Both the position numbers and the translations under genes were made by a program. DNA of 64,000 nucleotides from Escherichia coli (GTDB taxonomy: Bacteria; Pseudomonadota; Gammaproteobacteria; Enterobacterales; Enterobacteriaceae). Below the pieces are notes generated by a model, which searched no databases, was not told where the DNA came from, and worked only from the letters and a program-made list of their open reading frames with translations. Within the stretch, counting starts at the first letter, position 1. The number at the start of each line of letters is the position of its first letter. The stretch lies in the NCBI RefSeq assembly GCF_024700885.2, contig NZ_CP117016.1. One strand, written 5' to 3'. Of this stretch, positions 25,914-58,189 are shown piece by piece.

Positions 25914-26077
25914 TCACCTAGTTTTCCCAAGTCAACCCACATCAACAAAATCATTTAAAAACATATATATTACGTTGTTTTCATACGTTTGAGGTCAACC
26001 CTTGTCTCTTGAAATCAACACGCGGTTGGGGGCACAATCAGGGGCATGTTCTGTTCGGTCTAGGAAATGTGCCCCCA

Positions 26078-35289: not shown

Positions 35290-35520
35290 TATAATGCTCC
35301 TTACGCGTTATGGCATAGTTATATGCTAGTCGGGCGATTAGCCAGACTCGAACTTATTGAACGGTATTAGGGTTGCGCTTGGTGTGCCTCTGGATTGCAC
35401 TCCATGCTGTCGCGCAATCCAGAGGCACACCAAGCGCTTCCTTTAGGTAAGTGAGTAAAAACAGCACCTTCTTCGATTTATGATGAAGGTGCTGCAATCG
35501 TAACGTTTTTTGTATACACG
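35290..35520 (+). ncRNA. candidate retron msr-msd non-coding RNA
   Basis: Non-coding stretch directly upstream of the effector-RT pair with a perfect 24-bp stem (35375-35398 / 35414-35437, 15-nt loop) and a second 10-bp stem (35462-35471 / 35485-35494); exact ends and a1/a2 repeats not resolved. Confidence 0.55.
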
Positions 35521-35529
35521 GATAGTATA

Positions 35530-36498
35530 GTGGCTGAGACATACGAAGATAAAGTTGCTAATCATGTTTCAGAGTGGGAAATGGAAAATTTCCGTGTATG
35601 TTATGATGATCAGGTTATTTTCTTATGTGGTGCGGAAGTACTTCCTCAAGGAAGTGTTCAGACTTCAATGAGAGGGCATTTTTATCACTATTGCCTGAAT
35701 AAAAATAAAGATATAGCTGATAAAATAATTCTTGCCGAAAACTTCAAAAAATATCTTCAAAATAATCATTATCCAGACTTAATAACTTTTGAGCATGATG
35801 TTGCAAGTATATCTAGTTTAGTTGTTATTTTCTTGGAAAGCAGTGGTTCAATTGCTGAGTTAGGTGTTTTCTGTAATATTAGTGATGTCAATAAAAAATT
35901 ATTGATATTTGTTCCATCAGATGAAGTTGAAGGTGACAAGAAAGAGTCTTTCATTTACTTAGGGCCTTTATTGTTTTTAAAAGAAAAGGTCAATGAAAAA
36001 GCATTTAAGATTTATCCAAAACCCACTAATGGTTCTGATTACTCCGAGCATTTAGAGATTATGGCTGATGACTTGGCTGAACTATTACCTAGAAGTGGTA
36101 AGTTTGAAAGCTTCGATCCTGACAATTTAGGGCATATAGCTTTTCTTATATGCAGAATTGTGCATTTAGTAATGCCTATTAAGCTAAAGGAAATATTAAA
36201 TTGTTTAAAAATAATAGGTATCAATAAATATACTCTGACTGAGGTTGAAAGAATTTTGTTTTTATTGGAAACATTGGGTTTTATAAATATTTATCCGTAT
36301 GGCGATTTAAAATACTATTATTCAATGCAAGCCAGGCAAAATCTTAAATTAGGGAAAAATAAAACCGGATTCACAATCGATGAGGCTGGTATTTTTACTG
36401 ATATTAGTGTTTTTATCAATGACAATAAATTATGTAGTGATAAAAAAAGACGGCTGGTTTTGAAAGGCATTAAGGAGAAGCATAATGGACATAATTAA
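35530..36498 (+). CDS. retron effector candidate: nucleoside 2-deoxyribosyltransferase-like (NDT-like) protein with C-terminal putative DNA-binding region
   Basis: 322 aa (GTG start in the ORF track); Rossmann-like N-terminus with ESSGSIAELG motif resembling the NDT-family catalytic Glu region; overlaps the RT gene by 14 nt; AT-rich. Confidence 0.6.
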   Translation: MAETYEDKVANHVSEWEMENFRVCYDDQVIFLCGAEVLPQGSVQTSMRGHFYHYCLNKNKDIADKIILAENFKKYLQNNHYPDLITFEHDVASISSLVVIFLESSGSIAELGVFCNISDVNKKLLIFVPSDEVEGDKKESFIYLGPLLFLKEKVNEKAFKIYPKPTNGSDYSEHLEIMADDLAELLPRSGKFESFDPDNLGHIAFLICRIVHLVMPIKLKEILNCLKIIGINKYTLTEVERILFLLETLGFINIYPYGDLKYYYSMQARQNLKLGKNKTGFTIDEAGIFTDISVFINDNKLCSDKKRRLVLKGIKEKHNGHN

Positions 36499-37417
36499 AA
36501 AAATCGCAGATGAAACTCTAATGCCGGTATCAAAAGTATCTGCTTTTATATTTACAGCCCCATATAGATATAAAGTATATCCCATCCCCAAAAGGAATGG
36601 TGGGTTTAGGGAGATTGCTCAACCGTCAAGGGCATTAAAGTTTATGCAAAGGATTGTTATTGCTGAACTAGAGAAAGTACTTAAGGTTCATGAAAACGCA
36701 TATGCTTATGTCAAAGGACGTAGTATAAAAGATAATGTGGAAAAGCATCAAAGAAACTCTTATATTTTGAAAGTTGATTTCTGCGACTTTTTTAATAGCA
36801 TAAACCCTTACGACCTTGAGTTATGTTTAAAAAACAATGGGTTAGACTCATTGTTAAGCTCACAAGAATTATTGAATAAACTTTTTTTCTATAAGAAAAG
36901 TAAAAGAGGTGCTTTATCAATGAGCATCGGGGCACCTAGTTCTCCATTTTTGTCAAATGCGATTATGTATAAGTTTGATTCAGTCATTAGTGATATGTGT
37001 TCAAATAAAAATATTACTTATACAAGATATGCTGATGATCTTACATTTTCTACTAATGAAAAAGGTATTTTGTATGAATTCATACATGAAATAGATAAAG
37101 TTCTTGAGGAGATAGATAGTCCTAAATTAAAACTAAATGATAAGAAAACCATATTTGCATCTAAAAAATGCAATCGTCATATAACAGGAATTGTTATTAA
37201 TAACGAAGAAAAACTTTCAATTGGTAGAGATAAAAAACGTTACTTAAGTAGTTTAATTCATAAATTCTCGCTTAATGCACTTAATGAGGAAGGAGTTGAA
37301 CATTTAAAAGGGTATTTGGCGTATGTAAATAAAATTGAACCTTCATTCATTAGCAGAATGAAAAGGAAATATGGAGTCGAAGTTGTCAACTCCATAATCA
37401 CATTTAATCCATTATAA
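36485..37417 (+). CDS. retron-type reverse transcriptase
   Basis: 310 aa; RT motifs YRYKVYPIPKRNGGFREIAQPSRALK, VDFCDFFNSI, GAPSSPFLSNAIM, TRYADDLTFS (YADD active site), HITGIVI; distant resemblance to the Ec86 RT. Confidence 0.9.
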   Translation: MDIIKKIADETLMPVSKVSAFIFTAPYRYKVYPIPKRNGGFREIAQPSRALKFMQRIVIAELEKVLKVHENAYAYVKGRSIKDNVEKHQRNSYILKVDFCDFFNSINPYDLELCLKNNGLDSLLSSQELLNKLFFYKKSKRGALSMSIGAPSSPFLSNAIMYKFDSVISDMCSNKNITYTRYADDLTFSTNEKGILYEFIHEIDKVLEEIDSPKLKLNDKKTIFASKKCNRHITGIVINNEEKLSIGRDKKRYLSSLIHKFSLNALNEEGVEHLKGYLAYVNKIEPSFISRMKRKYGVEVVNSIITFNPL

Positions 37418-37894
37418 ATGTGAACTTATTATATTTATAATGGTTGTGCTTTTTTCTTGTACCTTAGGGGTGTAAAAGAATGTCATCATGAAGATAATTA
37501 AAAAATGAATGGCAATAAGAGTAATAGGTAACATTTTTTCAATATCACTTAAATGGCGATGCCTTTTTTGTGTAATAACTTCCTCTTCTCTTTTGAAAGG
37601 AGTTATACCTATCTTGACCTCCATCTCCTGAATTACTGTAAACTTAGCAGCATTAATTCTTTTATAGGAAGTAATTAGATTTATCCAATAGATATTAATT
37701 ACGACTCCAGCGAGAGAGATTAAGATTACCCAAATAGGCTGTATTGTTGGCTTTAAAGAAAAATATCCAACAAGCGGTAAAATAGAAGAGTTTAAGGCTA
37801 ATAAAAATGTATTTGACTTAAGTCTTCGATCACTTATTCTATCCGCCATCTCAACGCATGTTTTATATATTTCTATGACTTTATCATCCGTCAC
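37412..37894 (-). CDS. small three-TM membrane protein of unknown function (candidate defence/abortive-infection effector)
   Basis: 160 aa with three predicted hydrophobic helices; AT-rich; convergent with the RT gene, its stop codon overlapping the RT's last codon. Confidence 0.55.
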   Translation of the reverse strand: MTDDKVIEIYKTCVEMADRISDRRLKSNTFLLALNSSILPLVGYFSLKPTIQPIWVILISLAGVVINIYWINLITSYKRINAAKFTVIQEMEVKIGITPFKREEEVITQKRHRHLSDIEKMLPITLIAIHFLIIFMMTFFYTPKVQEKSTTIINIISSHL

Positions 37895-38137
37895 TAATAG
37901 TATCCTTATAAATTTCTGAGTTGTTCAAATAAATGTTATCATATATTTTTATCAACGTAATATGTATTTTTACGTATTTTTAACTGTGAGAGATACATAG
38001 TGATTGTTGGGTGCATGTACAATCCTTGATACTTAACAATGAAAGCGTAGTTGTGGGGGGGGGGCATATTTGGGGGCATTACTATTTAATCTTTCTTGAT
38101 TTTTATTATAAAACAACTGGTTGTATTGATGTTTTGT

Positions 38138-38154
38138 TCCTATTATCGCACCAT
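38138..38154 (+). repeat. attR: degenerate direct repeat of the thrW 3' end (island right boundary)
   Basis: tcctattatcg-caccat matches the tRNA 3' end tcctattatcggcaccat with one missing G. Confidence 0.5.
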
Positions 38155-38280
38155 TTAAATCAAGTAGTTACCTCACATTCAATTACACCACATTTTCCTC
38201 CTGTGCCGTATTTGTGCCATTGTAACCCTGGCAATTCATCAAAATACTGTTCTGACATCAGGCAGTGCAGGTGCAGACAT

Positions 38281-38496
38281 TTAAGCCAATTGCTGCCGCC
38301 ATTCCTTGACGTGGTCAATCAGGGCGCGGAGCTTTGGTGCAATATTGCGACGCTGTGGGAAATACAGATAGAAGCCCGGAAATTGTGGAAGAAAGTCATC
38401 AAGCAGCGATACAAGCTTACCGCTTTCAATATATGGCCTGAAAGTTTCCTGAGTGGCAATTGTTATGCCTGCGCCGGCAAGAGCCAGCCTCAACAT
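38281..38496 (-). pseudogene. LysR-family regulator, C-terminal fragment only
   Basis: 71-aa ORF matching only the C-terminal effector-domain end of the LysR paralogues in this window (...FPGFYLYFPQRRNIAPKLRALIDHV); no HTH N-terminus. Confidence 0.55.
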
Positions 38497-38689
38497 CAGA
38501 CGCAGATCATTCTGCTAATCCCACCGATGCTTCGGTCTGGAGTGGTAAATTAATATTGGACACAGTTTTATTTTCTCTCTTTTTCGAGGGCTATATGAAC
38601 AGGAAGAATACATCCCTAAGCGGTTAATGCTGGCGTAATCAATAGACCAGCATTAATCACAGATGATTACCAATCAGACAGAAATGGTT

Positions 38690-38810
38690 AAATCGTCGAA
38701 TTCATATTTAATACGTTTTCTTACGCCGCTGAGCAACTTGAAAGCAGGAAAAGGATGTATATTTTAAATATCAGTGAAGTGAACAGTTTATTGCCGTTAT
38801 TAATAGAGAT
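38690..38810 (-). pseudogene. degraded duplicate of the rpmJ2 (ykgO) 3' end and ykgR
   Basis: Close nucleotide similarity to 57200-58160; ykgR-like frame disrupted by a deletion (C-terminal IVVFVAIVEYAYLFLHLY retained, N-terminus out of frame). Confidence 0.4.
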
Positions 38811-39079
38811 GGAGGAATAAATAGGCGTATTCTACTATTGCAACAAAAACAACGATAATGATCAGTTTTCATAATGAAGTAACCTGACAGATATAAAAAT
38901 GTTGATTGAGGCTAAATGCCCGGATGAAGGTTGTCGAGGGAGCCAGGTGGTTTTTTCTTTTGGGTGATCTCCATTGCTGGATAGTCCTCTCTTTCTCGCT
39001 CAAAGCAGACCCTGGAATTGAATGCAGAGGGACTACCTGACACAATTTTGCACAGTGAAGAGTCGGTCGTTATTAACGT

Positions 39080-39964
39080 TCAGATTTTCAATGTATCAAT
39101 GACCATCCGCAGGGCGGGGGAGACGTTGCGATGAGGGTAATAGAGAAACAATCCCTCCATTCGCAGGCTGTAACGCTGCAACACCCTGATAAGCTTACCG
39201 TGTTCTAAATCATCCGCGACCAGTTCAACAGGAACATAGGCCAATCCGAGGCCCAGCCGGGCTGCTTCTGCTTCCATATAGCTGTCGGATAAGGCCCATT
39301 GCCCTTCAGGGCGATGAGTGATTTTTTTATCATCCTGATTGAGTTCCCACTGGTATACGCTGCCGTCGGCAAACTGATAGGCGATACAGGGATGCGCCTT
39401 TAAATCCGCCGGGGTTTGCGGAAAACCATAGCGACGAAAATGTTCCGGAGTCCCCACAATTGCCATCTCCATATCGGGCGTGATGCGTACCGCGACCATA
39501 CCCTGGCCGACTTCAGGCCCCAGGCGGACACCTGCATCGAATCTTTCCTCGATGATATCGACGAACCGGCTCTCATTTATCAGTTCAAGCCGGATATCAG
39601 GATATCTCTGTTTAAATACCGCCAGCTTTGGCAGCAGGCATTTATCAATCGCGTGCTGGCTGGCATTGATACGCACCGTGCCGGAGGGCGTCTCTCGATA
39701 GTGCGCCAGCGTGGCAAGCCCAAGATCTAACATTTCAAATCCAGATGCCGTCTTCTGGTAGAGCTGCTCGCCTGCTTGTGTCAGCGACAGTTTACGCGTG
39801 GTGCGCACTAGCAGCTGGACGCCCAGCCTTTCTTCAAGCTCGCGAACAGAACGGCTGACTCCTGACTGAGCAAGACCCAGCCGCTGAGCCGCTGCGGTAA
39901 AGCTGCCTTCCCGCACCACCTGCATAAACAGGTACAGCTCGTTGTAGTTCTCCCTTTTCGCCAT
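39080..39964 (-). CDS. LysR-family transcriptional regulator
   Basis: 294 aa; N-terminal HTH (FTAAAQRLGLAQSGVSRSVRELEERLGVQLL) and LysR substrate-binding domain; divergent from the hydrolase gene. Confidence 0.85.
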   Translation of the reverse strand: MAKRENYNELYLFMQVVREGSFTAAAQRLGLAQSGVSRSVRELEERLGVQLLVRTTRKLSLTQAGEQLYQKTASGFEMLDLGLATLAHYRETPSGTVRINASQHAIDKCLLPKLAVFKQRYPDIRLELINESRFVDIIEERFDAGVRLGPEVGQGMVAVRITPDMEMAIVGTPEHFRRYGFPQTPADLKAHPCIAYQFADGSVYQWELNQDDKKITHRPEGQWALSDSYMEAEAARLGLGLAYVPVELVADDLEHGKLIRVLQRYSLRMEGLFLYYPHRNVSPALRMVIDTLKI

Positions 39965-40129
39965 TGAAACATCCCCCCTTCATGCCGGCAATCTCCGCAT
40001 TAATTTATAACAATATGGTATTAATCTTAGCATTAATCGCCCCCTAATCAGCACTAATTCTGCTCACTATAATGACCCCATCAAAGTAAAGCACCGCAGC
40101 GTTGTCCGTCGGAAACCTGTATCTCTCTG

Positions 40130-41279
40130 TTGTTTTTTATGGGGATTTTTATGAAAGCCTTCACCCGCACGCTAAAAACCGCGATGCCGACCATGCTGCT
40201 TTTCGCATCATTAAGTGGAGTCACGACAATGAGTTATGCTGATTCAACCAATCCTAATGCCCCTGTGTCCATGACAGATAAATGGGATAAAACGTTCGCC
40301 GAGAGCCAGAAAGTCGATCACCGTAAAGTCTCGTTCCCGAACCGATATGGCATCACCTTAGTGGGCGATCTTTACCTGCCTAAAGACCGTGGCGATCGCA
40401 AGCTGGCGGCGATTGCGGTCAGTGGGCCATTTGGCGCGGTGAAAGAGCAATCCAGCGGCTTGTATGCGCAGACGCTGGCGGAACGAGGGTTTGTTACCCT
40501 GGCGTTCGATCCTTCTTACACCGGGGAAAGCGGCGGCTATCCGCGAAACGTCGCCTCACCGGATATCAACACTGAAGATTTCAGCGCGGCGGTGGATTTC
40601 TTAGGGCTGCAAAAAGAGGTAGATCGCAACCGTATCGGGCTGCTCGGTATTTGTGGCTGGGGCGGCATGGCGCTGAACGACGTGGCGATGGATACCCGCG
40701 TTAAAGCGGTAGCTACCAGCGTGATGTATGACATGAGCCGGGCGATGGGTCATGGTGTGGGGGATGGCAAAGACCGTTATTCTACCGCCGACCGTCGTGC
40801 CGTTCTGCAATATCTGAATGAACAGCGCTGGAAGGATGCGCAGAGCGGAACGTTCGCTCACGGTGGTCATGATATTAATGTCGACAGCAACGGCAAGGTC
40901 AGTGCGGGCGAGCGCATTCTGCCAGAAACGCTGCCGGCAAATCCTCATCCGGTACTGAAAGAGTTCTTTGACTACTATCGCATGCCGCGCGGCTTCCACG
41001 AACGTTCCGTTAACTCTACCGGGGCGTGGACGGCAACGATGCCGCTGGAATATGCCGCTGTTGAGCTACGCCAGTGAAATCACCATCCCGACGCTGATTG
41101 TGACCGGTGAGAAAGCGCATTCACGCTATTTTGCTGAAGATGCTTACAAGGTGGTTGGCAGTAACGACAAAGAGCTGGTGGTGGTACCAGGGGCAAATCA
41201 CGTGGACCTGTACGATAACGTGGCCGGAAAAATACCTTTCGCGAAGTTCGAACAATTTTTCCAGACCAAACTGAAATAA
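40130..41279 (+). pseudogene. alpha/beta (dienelactone-type, Cys-nucleophile) hydrolase, frameshifted by a 13-bp duplication
   Basis: ORF 40130..41077 carries the N-terminal and core domain (GICGWGG elbow); the C-terminus with catalytic His (GANHVDLYD) continues in ORF 40968..41279 in another frame; tandem duplicate atgccgctg(gaat)atgccgctg at 41039-41060. Confidence 0.6.
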
Positions 41280-41354
41280 AACCTCTCCTGAATTGATGCA
41301 AAGCCACCGGCCATAGGCTGGTGGCTTTTATCCTGATCTTTGTGAAATTTCACT

Positions 41355-42548
41355 ATGTCGACACTAAGCCAAACACTATCACCTCATCATCAGCGCGCAT
41401 ACTGGGGCGGTATTTTTGCCATGACCCTGTGCGTGTTTGTGCTGATTGCTTCTGAATTTATGCCCGTCAGCCTGCTCACGCCGATTACCCGCGATTTAGG
41501 CGTGACGGAGGGGCTGGCAGGGCAGGGGATTGCTATCTCCGGCGCGCTGGCGGTTCTGACCAGCCTGACGCTTTCAACGCTAGCTGGAAAGATGAATCGT
41601 AAGTTCCTGCTGCTGGGGATGACGGTTCTGATGGCCGTATCGGGGCTTATTATTGCGCTGGCTTCCAGTTATCTGATGTATATGGTCGGTCGTGCGATGA
41701 TTGGTGTGGCTATTGGCGGATTCTGGTCGATGTCAGCGGCAACGGCGATTCGTCTGGTGCCGCAGCATCAGGTCACGCGTGCGCTGGCAATTTTCAACGC
41801 CGGTAATGCGCTGGCGACGGTCGTGGCCGCACCGCTGGGAAGCTATCTGGGGGCTACGGTCGGATGGCGAGGCGCTTTCTTGTGCCTGGTGCCCATCGCG
41901 GTTGTCGCCTTTATCTGGCAGTGCATCAGCCTGCCAAGCATGGATGCGAATAAAAGCCACACTTCATGTGGCGCGGTATTCCGCTTATTTAGCCGCCGCA
42001 TGGTTGTGGTCGGCATGATAGCCTGCTGCCTGTTTTTCATGGGGCAGTTTGCACTATTCACCTATGTGCGCCCGTTTCTGGAGTCGGTGACACGGGTTAA
42101 TTCCTTAGGCTTGTCGTTGATTTTGCTGATTATCGGCGTGGCCGGTTTTATTGGCACGCTGGTTGTTTCGGCATTTCTCAACAGAAAATTCTACCCCACG
42201 CTGATGGCCATACCCGGACTGATGGCCGTCATTGCTATCGGTCTGATGCTGACCGGGCATCACGTCTGGACGGTCTCGCTGCTGTTAGGACTCTGGGGCA
42301 TGCTGGCCACCGCCGCGCCAACCGGATGGTGGACATGGATTGCGCGTACGTTGCCTGACAACGCCGAAGCCGGAGGCGGGCTCATGGTCGCGGTGATTCA
42401 GCTCTCCATCGCCCTTGGATCAACAGCAGGAGGCATCGTATTTGACCGCCTTGGCTGGCAGAGCACGTTTGCTATGAGTAGCGTGCTGCTCCTTTGCGCT
42501 GGCGTACTGACCTTTGTTACCGCACGCCAGAAGGCCGGTGCGCTTTAG
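41355..42548 (+). CDS. MFS-family transporter
   Basis: 397 aa with 12 predicted TM helices. Confidence 0.85.
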   Translation: MSTLSQTLSPHHQRAYWGGIFAMTLCVFVLIASEFMPVSLLTPITRDLGVTEGLAGQGIAISGALAVLTSLTLSTLAGKMNRKFLLLGMTVLMAVSGLIIALASSYLMYMVGRAMIGVAIGGFWSMSAATAIRLVPQHQVTRALAIFNAGNALATVVAAPLGSYLGATVGWRGAFLCLVPIAVVAFIWQCISLPSMDANKSHTSCGAVFRLFSRRMVVVGMIACCLFFMGQFALFTYVRPFLESVTRVNSLGLSLILLIIGVAGFIGTLVVSAFLNRKFYPTLMAIPGLMAVIAIGLMLTGHHVWTVSLLLGLWGMLATAAPTGWWTWIARTLPDNAEAGGGLMVAVIQLSIALGSTAGGIVFDRLGWQSTFAMSSVLLLCAGVLTFVTARQKAGAL

Positions 42549-42727
42549 TCCGGCGAGGGCGCGCGTTGCTGAATAAGTTACACAAGGCGATGAGCGCCCA
42601 CTATGGGTTGGGTGCTCTTTTAAACGATTTAGGTGATTTTCTAAAACGGCTACTGCAGATTTTTCTCTTAATTTATGGGTATTTCCCCCGGAGGCGAGAA
42701 AGCGCTCTCCACGCCCGGCCGCAAGGA

Positions 42728-43684
42728 TCAGGACGACGGGGGCAGGCATGAATCCTCCTCCTGATGGAGACGTACAGAGGCGACTTCTGCCAGCACGGAG
42801 AGTGCCAGAGTATGCGCATCCCGGGCTTTGGGGAATATCCCGACGGGTGCCCGGATTTGCGCTGTCTCCTCCCTGGACCATCCCAGCTCGTGGAGCTTTT
42901 GCAGACGTAAAGTGTGGGTTCGATAGCTGCCCAATGCGCCGAGATAAAAGGGTTTTGCTTCTCGCGCGGCCTGCAACACTGGCAGCTCCCGGTTGAGATC
43001 ATGGCACAGCAAAATGACCGCCGTATCGGTATCGATCTGAGCGCTGGCTGAGGCCGGAAAAAGATCGAAGATATGGCTGTCATAGCCTGTGGCTGCTGCA
43101 AGACTCGCGGTTGCCTGCGCCTCAAGAGAACGTCCGTAAATCATCAGCCTGACGCATGGCCTGAACCCCACCTCAAAGCCATTGAGACTCCAGCCCGTCC
43201 GGGTTTGCGTGGGCAGGCACACCAGCGATTGAGCTTGCGGATCGTAGCGCAGACCCGCCGGTTTTCTCTGTTCCAGGCGGTTCAGCACGGCGAGCAGAGG
43301 CTGTGCCGAGCGTAGTTTATGGAGCGTCAGCGTGATCCCACCGCCGCAGGGCAGAACGATGTCAAACCACGGCGAACCTTCGCCATAGCGAACTTCGCGA
43401 TCGCGGCCTGAGCCCATCACCTCCAGCGCTTCAAAAGCGGCAGCGGCCTCCACGCAGCCGCCAGAGACAAAACCGCAGTAACGGCCATCTTCGCGCACCA
43501 CCATCTGCGCCCCGAGCGGGCGCGCCGCGCCGCCGCGTATCTCCACCAGCGTCACCAGCACCGCTCCTTTACCGGACATTAGCGCCTCTACGGCGAAGCG
43601 CAGAATGGTCCGGTGGTCATCGGTGAGAAACGCCTGCTCTGGCTTATGCCAGTGCTCGTCTTTATCAAAAAGCGAGTATGACAT
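42728..43684 (-). CDS. paoD: XdhC/CoxI-family molybdenum cofactor insertion chaperone
   Basis: 318 aa; last gene of the aldehyde oxidoreductase operon (yagQ position). Confidence 0.82.
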   Translation of the reverse strand: MSYSLFDKDEHWHKPEQAFLTDDHRTILRFAVEALMSGKGAVLVTLVEIRGGAARPLGAQMVVREDGRYCGFVSGGCVEAAAAFEALEVMGSGRDREVRYGEGSPWFDIVLPCGGGITLTLHKLRSAQPLLAVLNRLEQRKPAGLRYDPQAQSLVCLPTQTRTGWSLNGFEVGFRPCVRLMIYGRSLEAQATASLAAATGYDSHIFDLFPASASAQIDTDTAVILLCHDLNRELPVLQAAREAKPFYLGALGSYRTHTLRLQKLHELGWSREETAQIRAPVGIFPKARDAHTLALSVLAEVASVRLHQEEDSCLPPSS

Positions 43685-43693
43685 TGTTCCTCC

Positions 43694-45892
43694 TTAAACC
43701 ACATCCGGCAGTTTATCGAGCAGCTTATCCAGAGTGATGGGATAATCCCGTACCCGAATACCGGTGGCGTTATACACCGCGTTGGCGATAGCCGCGCTCA
43801 CGCCGCACAGGCCCAGCTCACCGACACCTTTGGCCTTCATCGGGGAGGAGATGGGGTCGGTATCATCCAGGAAAATCACCTCCTGTTTTGGGATATCCGC
43901 ATGAACCGGCACCTCATACCCCGCCATATCGTGATTAACGAAGTAGCCCAAACGGTCATCTACCGCCAGCTCCTCCATCAGTGCCGCGCCCATGCCCATA
44001 GTCATCGCGCCAATGACCTGGCTACGTGCAGTTTTCGGATTCAGGATGCGTCCTGCAGCACACACAGCGAGCATACGCCGGACCCGAACTTCTCCCGTCG
44101 CGCTATGCACGCCGACCTCCACAAAATGCCCGGCAAAGGTCGACTGCTGGTACTCCTTGCTCAGTGTTCCGAATTCAATGCTCTCTTCCGCTGTCAGTCT
44201 GCCGCCTGCGGTGGCCTCATGTAGCGTGGCGCTTCGGGTACCGTTGGTAATCTTGCCGTCGGCAAACTGCGACTGCTCAGGATCAAACCCGACTGCCGAG
44301 GCAATCATTTCGCGAAGTTTCACACAGGCGGCGTAAACGCCGGAGGTGGAGGTATTCGCGCCCCATTGTCCACCAGACCCCGCAGAAACCGGGAAACTGG
44401 AATCGCCGAGGTGAACCGCAACCTGCTCCAGCGGTACGCCAAGCATTTCCGCTGCCGTCTGGGCCAGAATGGTGTAGCTGCCAGTGCCAATATCGGTCAT
44501 GTCCGTTTCCACGGTAACGGTGCCGTTTTGTTCGAGATGAACCCGCGCACCCGATTTTTCCAGCAGATTATTGCGAAAGCCCGCCGCAACACCGTGGCCG
44601 ACTAGCCACTCCCCGTCGCGTACCTGTCCGGGTGTGGCGTTGCGCTGCTTCCAGCCAAATTTATCCGCTCCGGTGCGCAAGCACTCAATAAGCTGACGGC
44701 GAGAGAAGCGGCGCGTCGGGTCGGCGGGGTCAACCTGAGTGTCATTCAGGATGCGAAACTCGACGGGATCGATGCCCGCTTTTTCCGCCAGTTCATCGAT
44801 CGCGATTTCGAGCGCCATCAGACCGGGGGCTTCGCCGGGCGCACGCATGGCGTTCCCTTCCGGCAAATCAAGCGTGGCGAGCCGCAGGCCGGTATGACGA
44901 TTCGCCCCTGCGTAAAGAAATTCGCTTTGCTGTACCGCCGTTTCCGGCGTGCCGCCGGGCAGGTTTCCGGACCAGCTTTCATGTGAGATAGCAGTGATTT
45001 TCCCGCTCTGGTCGGCACCGATACGCAGGTGCTGAAGGGTGGCGGGGCGGTGCGTTGTGTTATTGGGAATAGTGGGGCGGGGGAGCATCACTTTAACCGG
45101 ACGTTTCACCGCACGGGCGGCGAGGGCCGCCAGCAGCGCATCGCTTCTCAGGAACAGCTTGCCGCCAAACCCTCCACCGATATACGGGGAGATAATACGC
45201 ACATTCTCCACGGGCACTTTCAGCGTTTTTGCCAGATCGGTGCGGCACCAGTCAATCATCTGATTTGAGGTCCAGAGGGTAAGCTTATTTCCATCCCAGA
45301 CGGCCATCGAGGCATGCGGCTCCATCGCCATATGGCTCTGGTCCGGGGTCGTGTAGGTAGCATCAATCTTCACCGCAGCGGAGGTGAAAGCCCCGTCAAA
45401 GTCACCAACATTTTTATCGGGCGTGTCTTCCGGCGGCTGACTGACGGCCTGTTTCTCGTCCGCCAGGGAGTAAGCTCCTTTATTACGGCGATAGTGCGCC
45501 TGCACCAGCGAGGCCGCCGCTCGTGCCTGTTCGAAGGTCTCGGCCACTACCAGCGCAATGGCCTGATGATAGTGCTCAATAGTGGGGCCGCCTAACAGCC
45601 TGGCGGTGTTTTTGTCGCCTTTGCCGAGCACCCCGGCGTTACTGGCGGTAATGACAGCCAGTACGCCCGGCGCTTTTTGCGCGGCGTCCGTATCGAGGGC
45701 GGTGAGGCATCCTTTGGCAATGGCGGAACCGACGATATAACCATAGGCGGCGTTGGGGGCTTCTTCATGCCATTCGTAGGCGTAGCGTGCCGTGCCGGTA
45801 GTTTTCAGCGGTCCGTCGATGCGGTCATGGGGACGACCGACAACCTTCAGCTGATCGATCGGGTTTTCCCCTGCGGGTTTATCAAATTTCAT
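43694..45892 (-). CDS. paoC: periplasmic aldehyde oxidoreductase, molybdopterin-binding large subunit
   Basis: 732 aa xanthine dehydrogenase-family Mo-binding subunit. Confidence 0.9.
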
Positions 45893-46845
45893 GCCTGTGC
45901 CCTCGCTTCAGCCAGTACGGAGGCAAGCGTTCGCTTCGCCAACAGGAGTTTAAAGGTGTTTTCAGCGGTGGGATGGGCGCTGGCGAACAGCGCGTCATAT
46001 ACGGCCTGCGCCCCCTGGGATAGCTGAGCATCCGCAGCCTCAATGCGCCAGGGCTTATGTGCTACTCCGCCCAGCGCGACGCGCCCGCTGCCGTCAGGCT
46101 GAATAATCGCTGCGACCGATACCAGGGCAAAGGCGTAGGAGGCGCGATCGCGCACCTTACGGTAAATATGTTTTCCGCCGAGCGGCGGAGGTAACGTCAC
46201 CGCAACGATAAGCTCACCGGGAAGCAGGGCGGTTTCAATGTGCGGCGTTTTTCCCGGAGGGTGATAAAAATCAGCCAGTGTGATACTGCGAGTCTTTCCC
46301 TCCGGCGTGATGGTTTCCACCACCGCATCCAGCAACCGCATTGCGACCGCCATATCGCTCGGATGGGTGGCAATGCAGGCTTCGCTTACGCCTACCACCG
46401 CGTGCTGACGGCTAAAGCCTTCAAGTGCCGCGCAGCCGCTCCCGGGCAGGCGCTTATTGCAGGGCTGATTGGTGTCGTAAAAATAGGGGCAGCGCGTGCG
46501 CTGGAGCAGATTACCTGCGGTGGTTGCCTGATTACGTAACTGACCAGACGCGCCAGCGAGCAGGGCGCGGGAGAGTACCGCGTAATCACGACGCACGCGC
46601 TCGTGAGCTGCCAGGTCGGTGTTCCGTACCAGTGCGCCGATGCGCAGCCCACCCGCGTCGGTCACTTCAATCTTATCGAGCCCGAGCCCGTTCACATCGA
46701 TAAGGTGGGTTGGCGTTTCAATTTCCAGCTTCATCAGGTCCAGCAGATTGGTCCCGCCCGCGATAAATTTTGCGCCGGGTACGCGCTGAGCGCTAAGTGC
46801 CGCCTCGGCCGGGGTGTTCACTCGTTCATAGGTAAACGCCTTCAT
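45889..46845 (-). CDS. paoB: periplasmic aldehyde oxidoreductase, FAD-binding subunit
   Basis: 318 aa FAD-binding (CO dehydrogenase medium-subunit-like) protein; 4-nt overlaps with neighbours. Confidence 0.88.
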
Positions 46846-47531
46846 GATTTTATCTCCCCCGCAGCGTCTTCAATGGCGGCAAGGATGTTAGCGTATGCTC
46901 CACAGCGACAGATGTTGCCGCTCATACGTTCACGGATCTCATCGGCAGTTCTTTCTGGAGGGGAAACCAAATCGACCGTGACGTGACTGGGAATGCCGTC
47001 CTGAATCTCTTTTAGCACCGCTACTGATGAGCAAATTTGCCCGGAGGTGCAGTAGCCGCACTGGAAGCCATCATGCTTGATAAAGGCCGCCTGCATGGGG
47101 TGAAGATTCTCTGGTGAACCCAGGCCTTCAATGGTGGTGATCTCGGCCCCCTGATGCATGACTGCAAGCGTCAGGCAGGCATTAAGCCTGCGACCATTGA
47201 CCAGCACGGTACAGGCTCCGCACTGTCCGTGATCGCAACCTTTCTTGGTACCGAACAGATGCAGATTTTCACGCAAAGCGTCCAGTAGCGTGGTTCGGGT
47301 ATCCACCTCAAGCTGCTCGGTTTTGCCGTTCACCTTAAGTGTCAGGGGCATTATCTCTGGCGCGGGTGTAGCTGCCGGAACGCTTGCTGCAAGCGTAGAA
47401 TGAGGATAAACCACGGCGGTCGCCGCCGTTGCGGCGCTGACTTTAATCAGATCGCGACGGGTCAAACTAAAATCGTGCGGCTCGTGCTTCCCAACCCGAT
47501 TATCTTCGGGGTATTCGCCTTGGTTGCTCAT
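46842..47531 (-). CDS. paoA: periplasmic aldehyde oxidoreductase, [2Fe-2S] iron-sulfur subunit (Tat signal)
   Basis: 229 aa; twin-arginine signal ([18 protein letters not shown]) and 2Fe-2S cysteine motifs ([18 protein letters not shown]). Confidence 0.9.
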
Positions 47532-47937
47532 ACCAGGCCTCCGGTATTCTAAAGGGGAAAATAAGAGAGCGTTGCGAGAGTGCTGATGCTTTTTTAAACG
47601 TTAAGCATAGTCGGTGAGAGCAGGAGGATTATTCTTAAAACGCGAATGCAGCTATGAGCCCGGCTAATTAATTCATATTCGCCGATGACGGGAGCTCGTT
47701 TATTGCTTTAGTTGTGCGATGCAAAAACCGATAAGGAAACCTGTGATTGTCAGCTCTGCATCACCCTACAAATCTTTGTCACTTCTAACATAAAAATAGG
47801 GAGAAATGATGGTGCTTATATTCATTGGCGATTAGGAAACTATCTTGTTATACAAAACAATACAGTTCTTTACATTTGTCTTGTTTTATGAATACTCCTG
47901 AAGAGGTGTATAACATAATGGTACAAGCAGGGTAGAT

Positions 47938-48552
47938 ATGAATATATTTGAACAAACTCCACCGAACCGCAGACGTTATGGTCTTGCTGCATTCATTGGG
48001 CTGATTGCTGGCGTTGTTTCCGCATTTGTGAAGTGGGGGGCTGAAGTTCCATTGCCGCCACGTAGCCCGGTGGATATGTTTAATGCAGCGTGTGGCCCGG
48101 AATCATTAATCAGGGCTGCTGGGCAAATTGATTGCTCCCGTAATTTTCTCAATCCTCCGTATGTTTTTCTTCGAGACTGGCTAGGGCTGACAGATCCCAA
48201 TGCGGCTGTTTATACCTTTGCCGGGCATGTCTTTAACTGGGTTGGCGTTACGCACATTATCTTTTCGATAGTGTTTGCTGTCGGTTATTGTGTGGTTGCT
48301 GAAGTATTTCCAAAAATTAAACTCTGGCAGGGCTTACTGGCAGGTGCTTTAGCCCAACTTTTTGTTCATATGATTTCATTCCCTCTCATGGGACTGACGC
48401 CACCTCTGTTTGATCTCCCGTGGTATGAGAATGTTTCTGAAATTTTTGGACATTTAGTCTGGTTCTGGTCCATTGAAATTATTCGCAGAGATTTACGAAA
48501 CAGAATTACTCATGAGCCAGACCCTGAGATCCCTTTAGGCTCAAACAGATAA
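47938..48552 (+). CDS. yagU: inner-membrane protein YagU (DUF1440 family)
   Basis: 204 aa, three to four TM helices; position between pao and ykgJ. Confidence 0.82.
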
Positions 48553-48800
48553 TGCATTGAATAATAAAAATGGCGCAAATGCAGCGCCATTTTTATAGGT
48601 TAAAAACATTGCTTTTTACTTTCTGAAGCAGATAGCCAGTGAGTACATCGCGCTACTTCAGGATGCTGTAGATCCGGAGAACACTATAGAGGAAGATGCA
48701 TTGTTGCTGGCAGATGGAAGAAGTTTCGGGTTTTGTTATCCCTGAAAAACGAAGCCCCGCGGTTATAGCTGGCGGGGCAGTGCAATTAATTATTGCATAT

Positions 48801-49130
48801 TTATAACGGTGTCAGCCCGTATTTAGCTCTTGCACGATTGCAAGCCTCATTGACGACTCCGTTCTCACCAGACATGGCGAATTCTCTGCACGTGGACGAT
48901 CGATTTTTATATATCGTGCAGCAGGCATTTTTGCCCGGTGTTCCTGCAAGGGCAATACATCGGGGGTTTTTCTGATTGGTACCGCTCATGCATCGGTGAA
49001 AAGGGGATATTTGTTCAGTGAGCCTGGCGGGAATGGTACCGCCAGCATCGTCGGCTTCGGCCCAGTAAAAAGAGACGCGGAAAAATGCACAACAGGCACC
49101 ACACGTCATGCATGGATTCAGATTGCTCAT
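48801..49130 (-). CDS. ykgJ: YkgJ-family zinc/iron-chelating cysteine cluster protein
   Basis: 109 aa with CxxC clusters ([21 protein letters not shown]). Confidence 0.8.
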
Positions 49131-49443
49131 AATTCACCAGTACAGCTATAAATCGTAAAGAGAACAACGGTACATCGTATGTAAGAACGTACCGCGGTTG
49201 GCTGGGGAACTTTCGATAGTGTGAGTATTGAATGATTTCCAGCCGTTACCGATTTTACGTACTAATTCGTGAATAAACCACTCGTTAGCAGGCTGCCTGG
49301 TACCTTTCCGTGTCTCCTGAACACTATGGTGTACATATGAGAAAGCCCATCGTTACAGGTGACATTGACGATCGCTTCCACATCATTTAATCGATTATTT
49401 GAGTCTCTGAGGTGGAATTCTTCCCTCGTCCGATGGATAAGTC

Positions 49444-54281: not shown

Positions 54282-54306
54282 TGTCGTTATCCATCTGCAC
54301 AGCTAT

Positions 54307-55693: not shown

Positions 55694-56305
<612 letters not shown>

Positions 56306-57319
56306 TTACAGGTGCATTCAGTTTCCTTAGTAAACCGGAGGTAAATAAGATACGTAGTACATATCAATAAAGGTTAAACGAGATTAAGTTTAATTATTTT
56401 CGATTGGGCTTAAATTTATGTTTTTTTCCCGATGAGTGTCAATATGTGAACGGAAAAGGAATTCAATGGTTAAGTCAATATTTAGAAAAACTGAAAATAT
56501 TGCTTTTTTGATAAGAAGAAAAAGACATTTAGTTTCATAAGGTTATTGGCAATATAACGTTCATTTCTTACTTGCATTTTATATTGGTCAGGAACTTTGC
56601 CCTGAAGTGTTAGGAATAGTCTTAATGCGCTGTGTGATGGACTAGTAAAAAAACAAGTTTTAAGGGTAAGGGATAGAATATAAAACTATTATGAGCTGTC
56701 ATTGAAGATGATTTGCCAATCAGTAAGATATTTTAATGGATTAACATGCCGCACAAAATGGTTATAGGTGTTCATTACAATAAGTGATGGAAAATTGAAC
56801 GGGTATAAGTACGTCATCTGTTCGGTAAGTCCCCCAAGAGCCAAATTAAGTGAAGTTAAACGAAGGCTGCCAGCTGTCACAGGAACGATGGCCTCTTTGT
56901 CAGGGCACTGCATTCAGTCATCTGTGCGCATTACTCTAACTGGCACTCGAACGTCAGCGACGGGGTTACCGGTGGATCAGGCTGTTCCTGTGGCGTAAAC
57001 GTTTTTATGTTAGTACCAACAGATTTACCACATTTATCATCTTAACAGTTTGAGTGAAAATGCAGGCTGCGCCGCAAAGGGAGGAGACTGATGGCGTGTT
57101 CAGTCTAAAAGAGGGTTGATGCCAGCATACAGGGGCGAAGCTGGTCAACACGTCAACATTAATATAATGGAATATTCGGAGAGAAACGTCAGGCAGTTGA
57201 CCTTAAATGAACAGGAAGATACATCCCCAGGAAAATTAATGCTGGTGTAATAAATACACCAACATTAATCCGGTCTGATTATTAATCAGACAAATATCGT
57301 TAATTCGTCGAATTTTAAA

Positions 57320-57460
57320 TCAACGTTTTTTCTTACGACCCTGAACGGCCTTAAAACGTGGATTAGATTTACAAATCACATACAGCCGTCCTTTTCGCTT
57401 CACAATCTGACAGTCTGGATGGCGTTCTTTTGCGGTACGCAGAGAGTTAAGGACTTTCAT
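57320..57460 (-). CDS. rpmJ2: 50S ribosomal protein L36 paralogue (zinc-independent type B)
   Basis: 46 aa [46 protein letters not shown]; start overlaps the rpmE2 stop; not in the ORF track (<60 aa). Confidence 0.85.
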
Positions 57461-57726
57461 CATGCCTCCTTTTTCGTGCTAACAAAACGACCAAAACGTT
57501 GGGTGAACCGTGCAACATTTCCTTCTGATGCCACTGTTCTCAGCTTCCCTGTATAGAACGGGTGCGATTTCGAAGAGACATCAATTGTTACGTACGGATA
57601 CGTTACGCCATCCAGCTCAATCTCACGGTCTGTTTTGATAGTCGAGCCGATTTTAAAGTACTCATCAACACTGGTGTCATGGAACACCACAGTACGATAC
57701 TCAGGATGGATATTGGGTTTCATCAT
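57460..57726 (-). CDS. rpmE2: 50S ribosomal protein L31 paralogue (zinc-independent type B)
   Basis: 88 aa [61 protein letters not shown]... Confidence 0.9.
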
Positions 57727-57732
57727 TTTTAC

Positions 57733-57754
57733 CGGTTATGTTATAACATAACCG
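57733..57754. promoter_or_regulatory. Zur box upstream of rpmE2-rpmJ2
   Basis: cGGTTATGTTATAACATAACCg is a perfect palindrome of the Zur operator type, immediately upstream of the rpmE2 start. Confidence 0.6.
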
Positions 57755-58087
57755 CAAAGATACATGCTCATCCGGATCATTTCAACACCCAATCCCTGTG
57801 ACTATTTGTAGGATGTGGAATTTCCGCAACGGAGAAGTCTGGTATTGTTAGCAGCCATTGGCGACGCTCTCATAAACGCCTGGATGAGTGATTGATGATG
57901 GTTTCGCTGAGAGTATGAATTTTTCGAGAATGGAGGCTATCTCCACTTTACTGGCCGATGATTTATCGCAGTTTGATTGATTACCTGACAGCGTGTATTC
58001 CTCTCCCACGGATATAATAATTACTTACAAAAAAGGGAGAGGATGCATATTTTAAATATCACTGCAGTGAACAGTTTATTGCCGTTA

Positions 58088-58189
58088 TTAATAGAAATGG
58101 AGAAATAAATAGGCGTATTCTACAATTGCGACAAAAACAACGATATTAATCAGTTTATGACTGATTTGCTGTACTTTATTCTCTTTCAT
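58088..58189 (-). CDS. ykgR: small membrane protein YkgR (33 aa)
   Basis: Minus-strand ORF MKENKVQQISHKLINIVVFVAIVEYAYLFLHFY; below the ORF-track size cut-off. Confidence 0.55.
   Translation of the reverse strand: MKENKVQQISHKLINIVVFVAIVEYAYLFLHFY

What the first reader, a model, noticed from the sequence alone, without database searches (positions are those of the whole stretch)
38011..38810. Scar at the island's right boundary: LysR C-terminal fragment and a degraded copy of the rpmJ2-ykgR segment
Just outside attR there is a LysR fragment lacking its N-terminus (38281-38496), followed by sequence closely similar to the 3' end of rpmJ2 and to ykgR, which exist intact about 19 kb away at 57320-58189. 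The ykgR-like copy is frame-disrupted. This indicates an old segmental duplication or a rearrangement that left pseudogene debris at the integration hotspot.
Basis: seen in the sequence. Interest (0 to 1): 0.4.

Follow-up and report, generated by a model that had tools for sequence, protein, structure and literature searches.

The report
Gene fragments beside the thrW island
Next to a tRNA gene where mobile islands insert, this E. coli carries dead fragments of a regulator gene and of a second, old version of the ykgL-ykgO-ykgR region; they are ordinary, already-annotated pseudogene debris and the island did not make them.

Summary
The window matches E. coli strain 1190 at 100% identity.

- **LysR fragment:** 38281-38511(-) holds the last 76 codons of a LysR regulator.
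- **ykg-like blocks:** 38592-38745 matches the ykgL 3' end, terminator hairpin and rpmJ2 3' end at 57204-57356 (about 77%, E 5e-22). 38746-38868 matches the ykgR 3' flank and codons 12-33 at 58034-58156 (91%, E 8e-45).
- **Already annotated:** RefSeq/PGAP marks both as partial pseudogenes.

Three points need correcting.

- **Truncated, not frameshifted:** ykgR' keeps 22 codons in frame. It lacks the first 11 codons and has a TGA just upstream.
- **Two unrelated events:** the LysR fragment comes from a 2,050-bp deletion of LysR-SDR-hyp, relative to O55:H7. The ykg block is older and occurs in 912 of 5,426 complete genomes.
- **Not an island scar:** strain JNE12-007 has the same junction and the same ykgR' beside an empty thrW.

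Three complete genomes (6EVA, wlxctx60, GF4-3) join the same ykgL'-rpmJ2' remnant to a single full-length ykgR. They lack the 19,288 bp between the two copies. ykgR' therefore probably descends from a working gene of a divergent version of the locus. Whether that joined form came first or arose by deletion is unresolved. I found no evidence that the debris has a function. Interest is low.

The parts
38138..38154 (+). attR: a 17-nt imperfect copy of the thrW 3' end (thrW is 25838-25913). It marks the right end of the roughly 12.2-kb P4-like satellite island.
   Evidence: ARAGORN finds tRNA-Thr(CGT). Local alignment pairs 25897-25914 with 38138-38154, with one G missing. The empty-site strain JNE12-007 aligns from 38138 onward.
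38155..38280 (.). Conserved backbone spacer between the att site and the LysR1 stop codon. It is intact here.
   Evidence: It aligns at 95-97% with K-12, O55:H7 and JNE12-007.
38281..38511 (-). LysR1 C-terminal fragment: the last 76 codons and the stop, with no HTH domain. It is allelic to K-12 yagP.
   Evidence: Pfam PF03466 positions 137-207 of 209, E 5e-10. 98.7% identical to residues 224-299 of O55:H7 WP_000687183.1. PGAP calls it a partial pseudogene.
38511..38512 (.). Junction of a 2,050-bp deletion that removed the N-terminal 223 codons of LysR1, an SDR oxidoreductase gene and a 92-aa hypothetical gene.
   Evidence: The window joins L003 2953 to L003 5004 (O55:H7), with 1-2 nt of microhomology. 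The junction is found in 179 of 5,426 genomes.
38512..38591 (.). Spacer that lies downstream of the 92-aa gene in strains without the deletion. It is not part of the ykg-like homology.
   Evidence: Alignment A1. No similarity to 55.5-59.5 kb.
38592..38707 (+). ykgL' 3' end and the ykgO/ykgL intergenic hairpin region of the second version. The first hairpin (38624-38657) is kept. The second hairpin and the U-tract are lost.
   Evidence: BLAST 76.7% to 57204-57344. Folding gives -18.8 kcal/mol, z -4.6, against -24.5, z -6.1 for the intact locus.
38708..38745 (-). rpmJ2' (type B L36) remnant: the last 10-12 codons or so with their own TAA (..FQVAQRRKKTY* versus ..[11 protein letters not shown]). 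It is followed by the internal-deletion junction. In this strain and the 6EVA type the junction still carries GAAAGCAG, which O55:H7 and the other sampled copies have lost.
   Evidence: Translation and alignment.
38746..38799 (-). 3' flank of ykgR' (54 nt downstream of the stop codon).
   Evidence: Part of the 91% block matching 58034-58087.
38800..38868 (-). ykgR' remnant: codons 12-33 and the stop, in frame. It has no start codon, and an in-frame TGA lies at 38869-38871.
   Evidence: NF041474 positions 12-33 of 33, E 3.5e-9, below cut-off. Codon alignment. PGAP calls it a partial pseudogene.
38869..39079 (.). 211-bp spacer of unknown origin between the ykgR' truncation point and the LysR2 stop codon. 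It carries indel polymorphisms.
   Evidence: No match elsewhere in the window. It is not part of the LysR2 module in Kluyvera or Citrobacter, where DNA homology starts at 39076-39080. Alignment A1.
39080..39964 (-). Intact LysR2 regulator. It is the first gene of the LysR2 / alpha-beta hydrolase / MFS module that the debris abuts.
   Evidence: PGAP WP_001119037.1. Orthologues at 85-90% aa identity in Kluyvera, Enterobacter, Klebsiella and Citrobacter.
57204..58189 (-). Intact counterpart: ykgL 3' end (+ strand, frameshifted in this strain), ykgO/rpmJ2 57320-57460, ykgM/rpmE2 57460-57723, a palindrome GGTTATGTTATAACATAACC at 57734-57753, and ykgR 58088-58189.
   Evidence: PGAP annotation mapped from L009. 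NF041474 at 78.1 bits, above the 40-bit cut-off, for ykgR.

Best explanation
The region is inert backbone debris left by at least two unrelated events. The thrW island produced neither.

**Event A (shown).** A simple 2,050-bp deletion removed the first 223 codons of a LysR regulator (LysR1), a divergently transcribed SDR oxidoreductase gene and a 92-aa gene. O55:H7-type strains keep all three intact. K-12's yagP is an independent, larger deletion (6,128 bp) in the same gene.

**Event B (structure shown, history inferred).** The ykgL'-hairpin-rpmJ2'-ykgR' block is the truncated left end of a second, much more divergent version of the ykgL-ykgO-ykgM-ykgR segment.
- That version had already lost about 677 bp: rpmE2, most of rpmJ2 and the promoter region.
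- Its ykgR was probably still a working gene when it diverged. A rare haplotype (6EVA, wlxctx60, GF4-3) carries the same remnant joined to a complete ykgR. That gene shares three synonymous changes with all truncated copies, up to 9 nt from the truncation point.
- In the window's lineage this gene is cut at codon 11/12 and joined to a 211-bp spacer in front of LysR2.
- The 19,288 bp from that point to the matching position in the canonical ykgR (LysR2-hydrolase-MFS-pao-yagU-ykgJ-ecp-ykgL-ykgO-ykgM) is exactly what the rare haplotype lacks.
- The most likely origin is an additive, one-ended illegitimate recombination between two divergent versions of the locus, not a copy made from the resident locus.

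After truncation the remnant decayed neutrally. It has no start codon and no promoter of its own. It lacks the palindrome upstream of ykgM, which from my own knowledge of ykgMO regulation I take to be the Zur operator.
For: **Similarity.** Two collinear blocks, E 8e-45 and 5e-22. PGAP annotates both as pseudogenes.

**Event A.** Deletion mapped base by base against O55:H7. K-12 deletion mapped to L003 3062-9189. Allele counts among 5,426 genomes: 388 undeleted, 179 window-type junction, 2,685 K-12-type junction.

**Independence from the island.** JNE12-007 has an empty thrW site with the same junction and the same ykgR'.

**Single old origin of the block.** Five lineages share the same outer boundaries and the same internal deletion. 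There are 29 fixed differences from all E. coli intact loci.

**The block does not belong to the LysR2 module.** Homology with Kluyvera and Citrobacter stops at the LysR2 stop codon.

**Decay.** Among the copies there are 6 non-synonymous and about 3 synonymous codon changes, whereas the changes shared by all copies are 5 synonymous and 0 non-synonymous.

**Joined haplotype.** Found by a signature search and confirmed in three complete genomes, each with a single ykgR place. It is collinear with the window minus 38869-58156 (517 bp aligned at 92.9%). Its shared T/A/G states and its lack of the copies' later changes are shown.

**No function detected.** No Rfam hit. No family hit for the overlapping 33-aa ORF.
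Against: - The direction of event B is not proven. pao, ecp and ykgMO are near-universal in E. coli, and the joined form is in only 3 of 5,426 genomes. On parsimony the joined form could therefore be derived, by deletion between ykgR' and ykgR.
- The ykgR core of the joined haplotype is about 97% identical to canonical E. coli, while its flanks are only 77-90% identical. This mosaic points to later recombination or gene conversion, which blurs the history.
- No genome of another Escherichia species with a usable outgroup was obtained. L021 has a decaying locus and L020 ends inside ykgR.
- The synonymous/non-synonymous counts rest on 22 codons.
- Absence of expression was inferred from sequence, not measured.
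Confidence: 0.7

Rival explanations
1. The resident ykgL-ykgO-ykgM-ykgR segment was copied within the genome to the thrW side and then decayed through an internal deletion, a 5' truncation and point changes. On this model the joined 6EVA-type haplotype is secondary, made by recombination between ykgR' and ykgR that deleted the 19.3 kb between them.
For: The repeats are direct, in the same order and orientation. The copy is nearer to E. coli's own locus than to the sister-lineage locus L021: 20 fixed sites follow the pattern copy=E. coli≠L021, against 1 for copy=L021≠E. coli. pao, ecp and ykgMO are near-universal, while the joined form is in only 3 of 5,426 genomes. K-12-type, window-type and other alleles all derive from the composite arrangement, so that arrangement is old in E. 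coli.
Against: - The copy's branch is 10-20 times longer than the E. coli intact branch (0.106-0.213 versus 0.006-0.022, worked out from the distances). This is hard to reach by decay within E. coli's time depth.
- In the joined haplotype the copy-type states sit at the 5'-proximal end of the repeat and canonical-type states at the 3' end. A single crossover would give the opposite pattern, so the crossover would have to fall within the last 9 nt of homology.
- Two lineages about 3% apart share this same pattern.
- All changes shared by the copies are synonymous, which is unexpected for a fragment that was dead on arrival.
Confidence: 0.25
2. The fragments are a scar made by integration or excision of the thrW island, or of its predecessors: imprecise excision or island-end deletions chewed into the flank.
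For: The flank of thrW is clearly unstable. Four different left-hand truncations were seen. Two of them abut island DNA: an integrase fragment next to a truncated SDR gene in TUM14759, and an AbiE-carrying island ending inside ykgL' in W13-16.
Against: - In the window, attR and the 126-bp spacer are intact, and the deletion lies entirely inside backbone DNA.
- The same junction occurs beside an empty thrW.
- The K-12 and window deletions both spare the att-proximal end of LysR1.
- The ykg block lies 350 bp or more from attR and is shared by strains with different islands or none.
Confidence: 0.03
3. The block is kept because part of it works: as a small membrane peptide from ykgR', as the overlapping 33-aa ORF at 38771-38872(-), or as an RNA or terminator element built on the retained hairpin.
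For: Twenty-two codons remain in frame. A 10-12-bp hairpin is retained and nearly invariant in five lineages. A weak promoter-like site lies at 38738-38765(+).
Against: - There is no ATG/GTG/TTG start codon and a TGA lies immediately upstream.
- O55:H7 has four non-synonymous changes, including L>P and F>S, in the transmembrane segment.
- The U-tract and the second hairpin are lost.
- The one promoter-like site is fewer than the 3.1 expected by chance.
- No Rfam, Pfam or NCBIfam match supports the alternative ORF.
- The block is absent from about 83% of complete genomes.
Confidence: 0.04

Closest known systems
K-12 yagP, the LysR-family pseudogene just outside the CP4-6 prophage at thrW
   Same: It is the same gene at the same position: the K-12 fragment aligns to window 38138-38511 at 96%. 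It also lacks the N-terminal HTH domain.
   Different: K-12 keeps 339 bp and is joined directly to the region downstream of paoD by a 6,128-bp deletion. The window keeps 231 bp and is joined to the spacer in front of the ykg-like block by a 2,050-bp deletion. The two are independent events.
ykgR, a 33-aa small membrane protein (NCBIfam NF041474), with the adjacent ykgM-ykgO operon of alternative ribosomal proteins L31B and L36B. The operon is Zur-regulated according to my own knowledge; this was not tested here.
   Same: The remnant matches YkgR positions 12-33, the ykgR 3' flank, the last codons of ykgO and the ykgL/ykgO intergenic hairpin, in the same order and orientation.
   Different: It has no start codon, no ykgM, no promoter and no palindrome upstream of ykgM. 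Divergence is 9-23%, against 0.7-2.5% among E. coli alleles.
Additive integration by homology-facilitated illegitimate recombination, in which one end is homologous and the other illegitimate. This is a known route by which incoming DNA is added rather than swapped in bacteria.
   Same: One junction lies seamlessly in register inside ykgR. The other is an abrupt join with no homology at codon 11/12. A natural haplotype lacks exactly the intervening 19,288 bp.
   Different: The resemblance is mechanistic only. Neither donor nor recipient is identified, and the alternative (deletion between the repeats) is not excluded.
Erosion of the flanks of tRNA-associated integration hot spots, seen as nested deletions and mosaic junctions next to tRNA genes
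   Same: Several alternative truncations of the same thrW-paoD interval coexist in the species.
   Different: The window's own deletion does not touch the att site and occurs without any island.

Membership tests
YkgR small membrane protein gene (NCBIfam NF041474, equivalog) | Full-length match (33 of 33 positions) scoring at or above the curated 40-bit cut-off | tested here: not met
   The remnant covers positions 12-33 only and scores 36.1 bits, E 3.5e-9. The canonical gene at 58088-58189 scores 78.1 bits over positions 1-33.
YkgR small membrane protein gene (NCBIfam NF041474, equivalog) | An open reading frame with a start codon | tested here: not met
   An in-frame TGA lies directly upstream of codon K12, and the remnant contains no ATG, GTG or TTG.
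LysR-type transcriptional regulator | N-terminal HTH_1 DNA-binding domain (PF00126) | tested here: not met
   Only 76 C-terminal residues remain and there is no PF00126 hit. Residues 1-223 of the O55:H7 orthologue are missing.
LysR-type transcriptional regulator | LysR_substrate domain (PF03466) | tested here: inconclusive
   Partial: profile positions 137-207 of 209, 39.5 bits (cut-off 28), E 5e-10. Homology is clear but the domain is incomplete.
Type B ribosomal protein L36 gene (rpmJ2/ykgO) | Complete 46-codon ORF | tested here: not met
   Only the last 10-12 codons or so and a stop codon are recognisable, with a 2-nt indel.
Repeated DNA of common descent (paralogous or allelic second copy) | Long, collinear, same-strand similarity well beyond chance | tested here: met
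   E 8e-45 and 5e-22 in a 64-kb search. The same blocks appear in O55:H7.
Repeated DNA of common descent (paralogous or allelic second copy) | Single origin: the same boundaries in independent lineages | tested here: met
   In four lineages both outer boundaries and the internal deletion are the same. In the fifth, W13-16, the left end is overwritten by an island. The block is present in 912 of 5,426 genomes.
Island-generated scar at an att site | The lesion abuts or includes the att site and co-occurs with the island | tested here: not met
   attR and 126 bp of flank are intact. The same junction occurs beside an empty thrW in JNE12-007.
Direct repeats flanking a deletable or insertable segment | A natural variant carries one repeat copy and lacks the intervening DNA | tested here: met
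   6EVA, wlxctx60 and GF4-3 have a single ykgR and are collinear with the window minus 38869-58156.
Direct repeats flanking a deletable or insertable segment | Polarity of the event (insertion or deletion) | tested here: inconclusive
   The site pattern favours the joined form as the source. Gene distribution favours deletion. No informative outgroup was available.

The most novel reading that the evidence does not exclude
ykgR' and the canonical ykgR mark the two ends of a 19.3-kb block (LysR2-hydrolase-MFS, pao, yagU, ykgJ, ecp, ykgL-ykgO-ykgM). On this reading the block was added early in E. coli evolution to an ancestral chromosome resembling 6EVA or GF4-3, by one-ended illegitimate recombination inside ykgR. 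The near-universal pao/ecp/ykgMO interval would then be an ancient additive import, and the three rare genomes would preserve the state before the import.
Probability: 0.2. Interest if true: 0.4.

Novelty: already known. Interest (0 to 1): 0.12.

Why it matters
It matters little for function. The fragments encode nothing usable, and RefSeq already flags them as partial pseudogenes.

The value is in annotation and evolutionary history.
- The debris should not be read as a footprint of the retron-carrying thrW satellite.
- The thrW-paoD interval exists in at least five structural alleles in E. coli. The K-12 yagP form is an independent deletion found in about half of complete genomes.
- The ykgR remnant is a marker linking the common arrangement to a rare haplotype that lacks pao, ecp and ykgMO at this position.

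That link could help reconstruct how this part of the chromosome was assembled. It also warns that small 'duplicates' can be leftovers of recombination between divergent alleles rather than true duplications.

Tried and rejected
1. **Genome-contig scan.** I searched for the 21-mer CAGTTTATTGCCGTTATTAAT to collect ykgR loci from other species. It returned only two chance hits, a Gastranaerophilales MAG and Breznakia. The 21-mer is not exact even in K-12. The scan was wasted, so no named outgroup species were obtained.
2. **YkgL homologue search** and look-ups of the most divergent hits. All turned out to be E. coli loci 98% identical in DNA; the protein differences come from frameshifts.
3. **YkgR search against 1.84 billion representatives**. 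It gave two sister-lineage loci. L021 has decayed ykgM/ykgO and a doubly frameshifted ykgR, so it is a poor outgroup. L020 ends inside ykgR in adapter sequence.
4. **A larger duplication that includes neighbouring genes.** LysR2 versus the LysR at 62177 is 42% identical at the protein level. The hydrolase at 40130 versus the one at 60049 is 33%. There is no DNA similarity and the orientations differ. I rejected this as part of the same event.
5. **Resemblance of the LysR-NmrA-YdgH-like-ykgR arrangement in L020 to LysR1-SDR-hyp-ykgR'.** There is no protein or DNA homology. Rejected.
6. **The debris as part of the LysR2-hydrolase-MFS module.** Homology with Kluyvera and Citrobacter stops at the LysR2 stop codon. 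Rejected.
7. **Rfam** at E ≤ 1 on 37900-39100: nothing.
8. **The 180-aa ORF 38011-38553(+) and the 33-aa ORF 38771-38872(-).** The first spans the island end, attR and antisense LysR'. The second has no family match. I treat both as spurious.
9. **The joined contig L022 as an assembly chimera.** Three complete genomes show the same arrangement. Rejected.
10. **Literature search** for ykgR, yagP and thrW: the listed titles and abstracts showed nothing on this remnant (no paper was opened).
Full report
**Identity of the window and layout**

Window 38011-38900 is 100% identical to E. coli strain 1190 (NZ_CP023386.1). tRNA-Thr(CGT), thrW, lies at 25838-25913. A roughly 12.2-kb P4-like satellite follows it. 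PGAP names its genes as a TOPRIM/DUF927 primase, a polarity suppression protein, an ogr/Delta-like protein, a retron St85 effector and reverse transcriptase, and a RipA-family membrane protein.

The satellite ends at a 17-nt imperfect copy of the thrW 3' end at 38138-38154. Everything to the right of that is chromosome backbone. It aligns with strains that carry other islands or none.

**Check of the observation**

BLAST of 37900-39100 against the whole window gives two collinear, same-strand matches:
- 38746-38868 with 58034-58156: 91.1%, no gaps, E 8e-45.
- 38592-38732 with 57204-57344: 76.7%, E 5e-22. This extends to about 38745/57356.

Mapping PGAP's annotation of the intact locus shows what the blocks contain. 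The left block covers the ykgL 3' end, the ykgL/ykgO intergenic hairpins and the last 10-12 codons or so of ykgO (rpmJ2). The right block covers the 54-nt 3' flank of ykgR and its codons 12-33.

The 677 bp in between (57357-58033) is absent from the copy. That stretch holds most of ykgO, all of ykgM (rpmE2) and the upstream palindrome at 57734-57753. From my own knowledge I take that palindrome to be the Zur operator.

The LysR fragment is real:
- Pfam LysR_substrate positions 137-207 of 209, E 5e-10.
- 98.7% identity to residues 224-299 of a full-length O55:H7 LysR.
- It extends to 38511, not 38496.

PGAP annotates both fragments as 'incomplete; missing N-terminus'.

**Correction: ykgR' is truncated, not frameshifted**

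In the ykgR frame the remnant reads TGA-KLIIIVVFVAIVEYAYLFLHLY*, against ...SH-KLINIVVFVAIVEYAYLFLHFY*. It matches NCBIfam NF041474 positions 12-33 of 33 at E 3.5e-9, with 36.1 bits against a 40-bit cut-off. It lacks the first 11 codons, a start codon and the promoter region. The ATG-initiated 33-aa ORF at 38771-38872(-) is in another frame and matches nothing.

**The LysR fragment comes from a separate, simple deletion**

O55:H7 strain DEC5A has the fuller arrangement: island, LysR1 (299 aa), SDR oxidoreductase, a 92-aa hypothetical gene, the ykg-like block, LysR2, alpha/beta hydrolase, MFS transporter, paoD.

- The window joins L003 2953 to L003 5004, a 2,050-bp deletion with 1-2 nt of microhomology.
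- K-12's yagP is a different deletion of 6,128 bp (L003 3062-9189). It also removed the ykg-like block and the LysR2 module.
- TUM14759 and W13-16 show two further left-hand truncations that abut island DNA.

| Allele | Genomes of 5,426 |
|---|---|
| Undeleted LysR1-SDR-hyp | 388 |
| Window-type junction | 179 |
| K-12-type junction | 2,685 |
| ykgL'/rpmJ2' block present | 912 |

**The island did not cause the debris**

Strain JNE12-007 has thrW followed directly by the same 231-bp LysR fragment, the same junction and the same ykgR' remnant, with no island at all. In the window, attR and the 126-bp spacer before the LysR stop codon are intact. Calling this a 'scar at the island's right boundary' is therefore a mis-framing, although the thrW flank is clearly a structurally unstable interval.

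**Nature and age of the ykg-like block**

Copies were compared from five lineages: strain 1190, JNE12-007, TUM14759, O55:H7 and W13-16.
- They share the same internal deletion and the same outer boundaries. The exception is the left end in W13-16, which an island has overwritten.
- They differ from one another by 4-5%.
- They lie outside all sampled alleles of the intact locus. Mean p-distance is 0.235 (left block) and 0.112 (right block), against 0.025 and 0.007 among E. coli intact loci. There are 29 fixed differences.

The block is not part of the LysR2-hydrolase-MFS module. In Kluyvera and Citrobacter, DNA homology to that module begins exactly at the LysR2 stop codon.

The retained structure is partial. 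The first hairpin survives (-18.8 kcal/mol, z -4.6). The second hairpin and the U-tract of the ykgMO terminator are lost. No Rfam family matches. The single promoter-like site is below the chance expectation.

**Codon evidence**

In the 22 retained codons, the changes shared by all copies relative to the canonical gene are five synonymous and no non-synonymous. The changes that arose after the copies diverged from each other are six non-synonymous and about three synonymous. In O55:H7 these are L>P, I>T, I>T and F>S; in the strain-1190 type they are N>I and F>L.

This suggests the ancestor of the remnant was a functioning ykgR while it diverged, and became a pseudogene only later. The counts are small.

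**A joined haplotype**

I searched metagenome contigs for an intact 5' end combined with the copy's synonymous signature. That gave one contig. The same arrangement then turned up in three complete E. coli genomes, 6EVA, wlxctx60 and GF4-3:

proA, thrW, integrase remnant, Mn-catalase/ferritin-like genes, LysR1, SDR, hyp, ykgL', rpmJ2', a full-length ykgR (WP_000662258.1, identical to the canonical protein), about 125 bp of canonical upstream sequence, a remnant of the flavin (OYE-type) oxidoreductase gene at 58662-59804 (83% identical), a remnant of the LysR gene at 62177-63145 (79%), fdeC, then the bet genes.

- Each genome has a single ykgR place. None has LysR2, pao, ecp or ykgMO at this position.
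- The arrangement is collinear with the window minus 38869-58156, which is 19,288 bp (517 bp aligned at 92.9%).
- Its ykgR carries the three synonymous states found in every truncated copy (ATC, GTT, ATA), up to 9 nt from the truncation point. It lacks the copies' later changes.
- 6EVA and GF4-3 differ by 3.2% over 25 kb, yet share this pattern.
- The DNA to the right of ykgR in these genomes is only 83-90% identical to typical E. coli. It is not like the sister-lineage loci L020 or L021.

**Interpretation**

ykgR' and the canonical ykgR are the two ends of a 19.3-kb insertion/deletion polymorphism. I favour the reading that the truncated remnant derives from a full-length, divergent version like that of 6EVA, through recombination with one homologous end and one illegitimate end.

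Three things support this:
- A crossover that would instead create the joined form from the composite would have to fall in the last 9 nt of homology.
- The shared changes are all synonymous.
- The 21-23% divergence of the ykgL'/rpmJ2' part is too large to have arisen by decay within E. coli.

The reverse polarity, an old duplication followed by deletion between the repeats, remains possible. pao, ecp and ykgMO are near-universal, and all the common alleles derive from the composite arrangement.

I could not obtain informative outgroup species. The two sister-lineage loci I did find are either decaying or cut off.

**Verdict**

It is wrong on the frameshift, on the link to the island, and on treating everything as one event. 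A resident-locus duplication is probably not the best account of the origin. No function is indicated. The features are already annotated, so interest is low. The one mildly interesting by-product is the rare joined haplotype that lacks the pao-ecp-ykgMO interval.

Noticed in passing
window 35296-37894: There is a retron St85-family system on the thrW P4-like satellite. It comprises an msr RNA (Rfam RF00170, 35296-35365, 53.4 bits against a gathering score of 52), an effector (35530-36498), a reverse transcriptase (36485-37417, with a YADD motif) and a convergent RipA-family membrane protein (37412-37894, minus strand).
   Followed up: partly
L023 (6EVA) 9815-13390; L024 (GF4-3) 9812-13403; L022: Three complete E. 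coli genomes carry a rare thrW-bet haplotype with a single ykgR fused to the ykgL'-rpmJ2' remnant. At this position they lack LysR2-hydrolase-MFS, pao, yagU, ykgJ, ecp and ykgMO. The DNA upstream of fdeC is only 83-90% identical to typical E. coli.
   Followed up: partly
window 58034-58087 and L023 12343-12390: The 54-nt 3' flank of ykgR is identical between the canonical gene in sampled E. coli alleles such as O157 (the window's own differs at one base) and the 6EVA-type gene, although adjacent DNA is about 20% diverged. It changes only in the truncated copies. This may be a constrained terminator or 3' UTR of ykgR.
   Followed up: no
window 57060-57285: ykgL is annotated as frameshifted in this strain. 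A 1-nt loss near 57222 gives GAAG-ATAC, whereas K-12, the sister lineage L021 and the thrW-side copy all keep GAAGAATA.
   Followed up: partly
window 38055-38064: A run of ten G lies 74 nt inside the right end of the island.
   Followed up: no
window 39080-42548 versus 60049-63145: Both ykgR and ykgR' are followed by a divergently arranged LysR regulator and alpha/beta hydrolase pair. The regulators are 42% identical and the hydrolases 33% identical at the protein level. There is no DNA similarity and the orientations differ. I judged this to be family-level resemblance only.
   Followed up: yes
window 48558-48758: A full-length Rfam IS009 (RF02111) match scoring 190.7 bits lies between the ORFs at 47938-48552 and 48801-49130.
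   Followed up: no
L015 (O157:H7 ATCC 43890) 3784-6434: An ISEc8 (IS66-family) element is inserted between ykgM and ykgR, and ykgR itself is frameshifted in this O157:H7 strain.
   Followed up: no
L021 4001-4933 (GCA_900603405.1): In a sister Escherichia lineage (92% identical to the window across ecp-ykgR), ykgM and ykgO appear degraded: tblastn gives 58% and 40% in pieces. Its ykgR has a compensated double frameshift (..VGIRYLF..).
   Followed up: partly
window 38869-39079; L024 about 12340-12360: The 211-bp spacer between ykgR' and LysR2 carries 18-bp and 9-bp indel polymorphisms among lineages. GF4-3 has a threefold TGAACAGCT tandem repeat in the rpmJ2' remnant.
   Followed up: no
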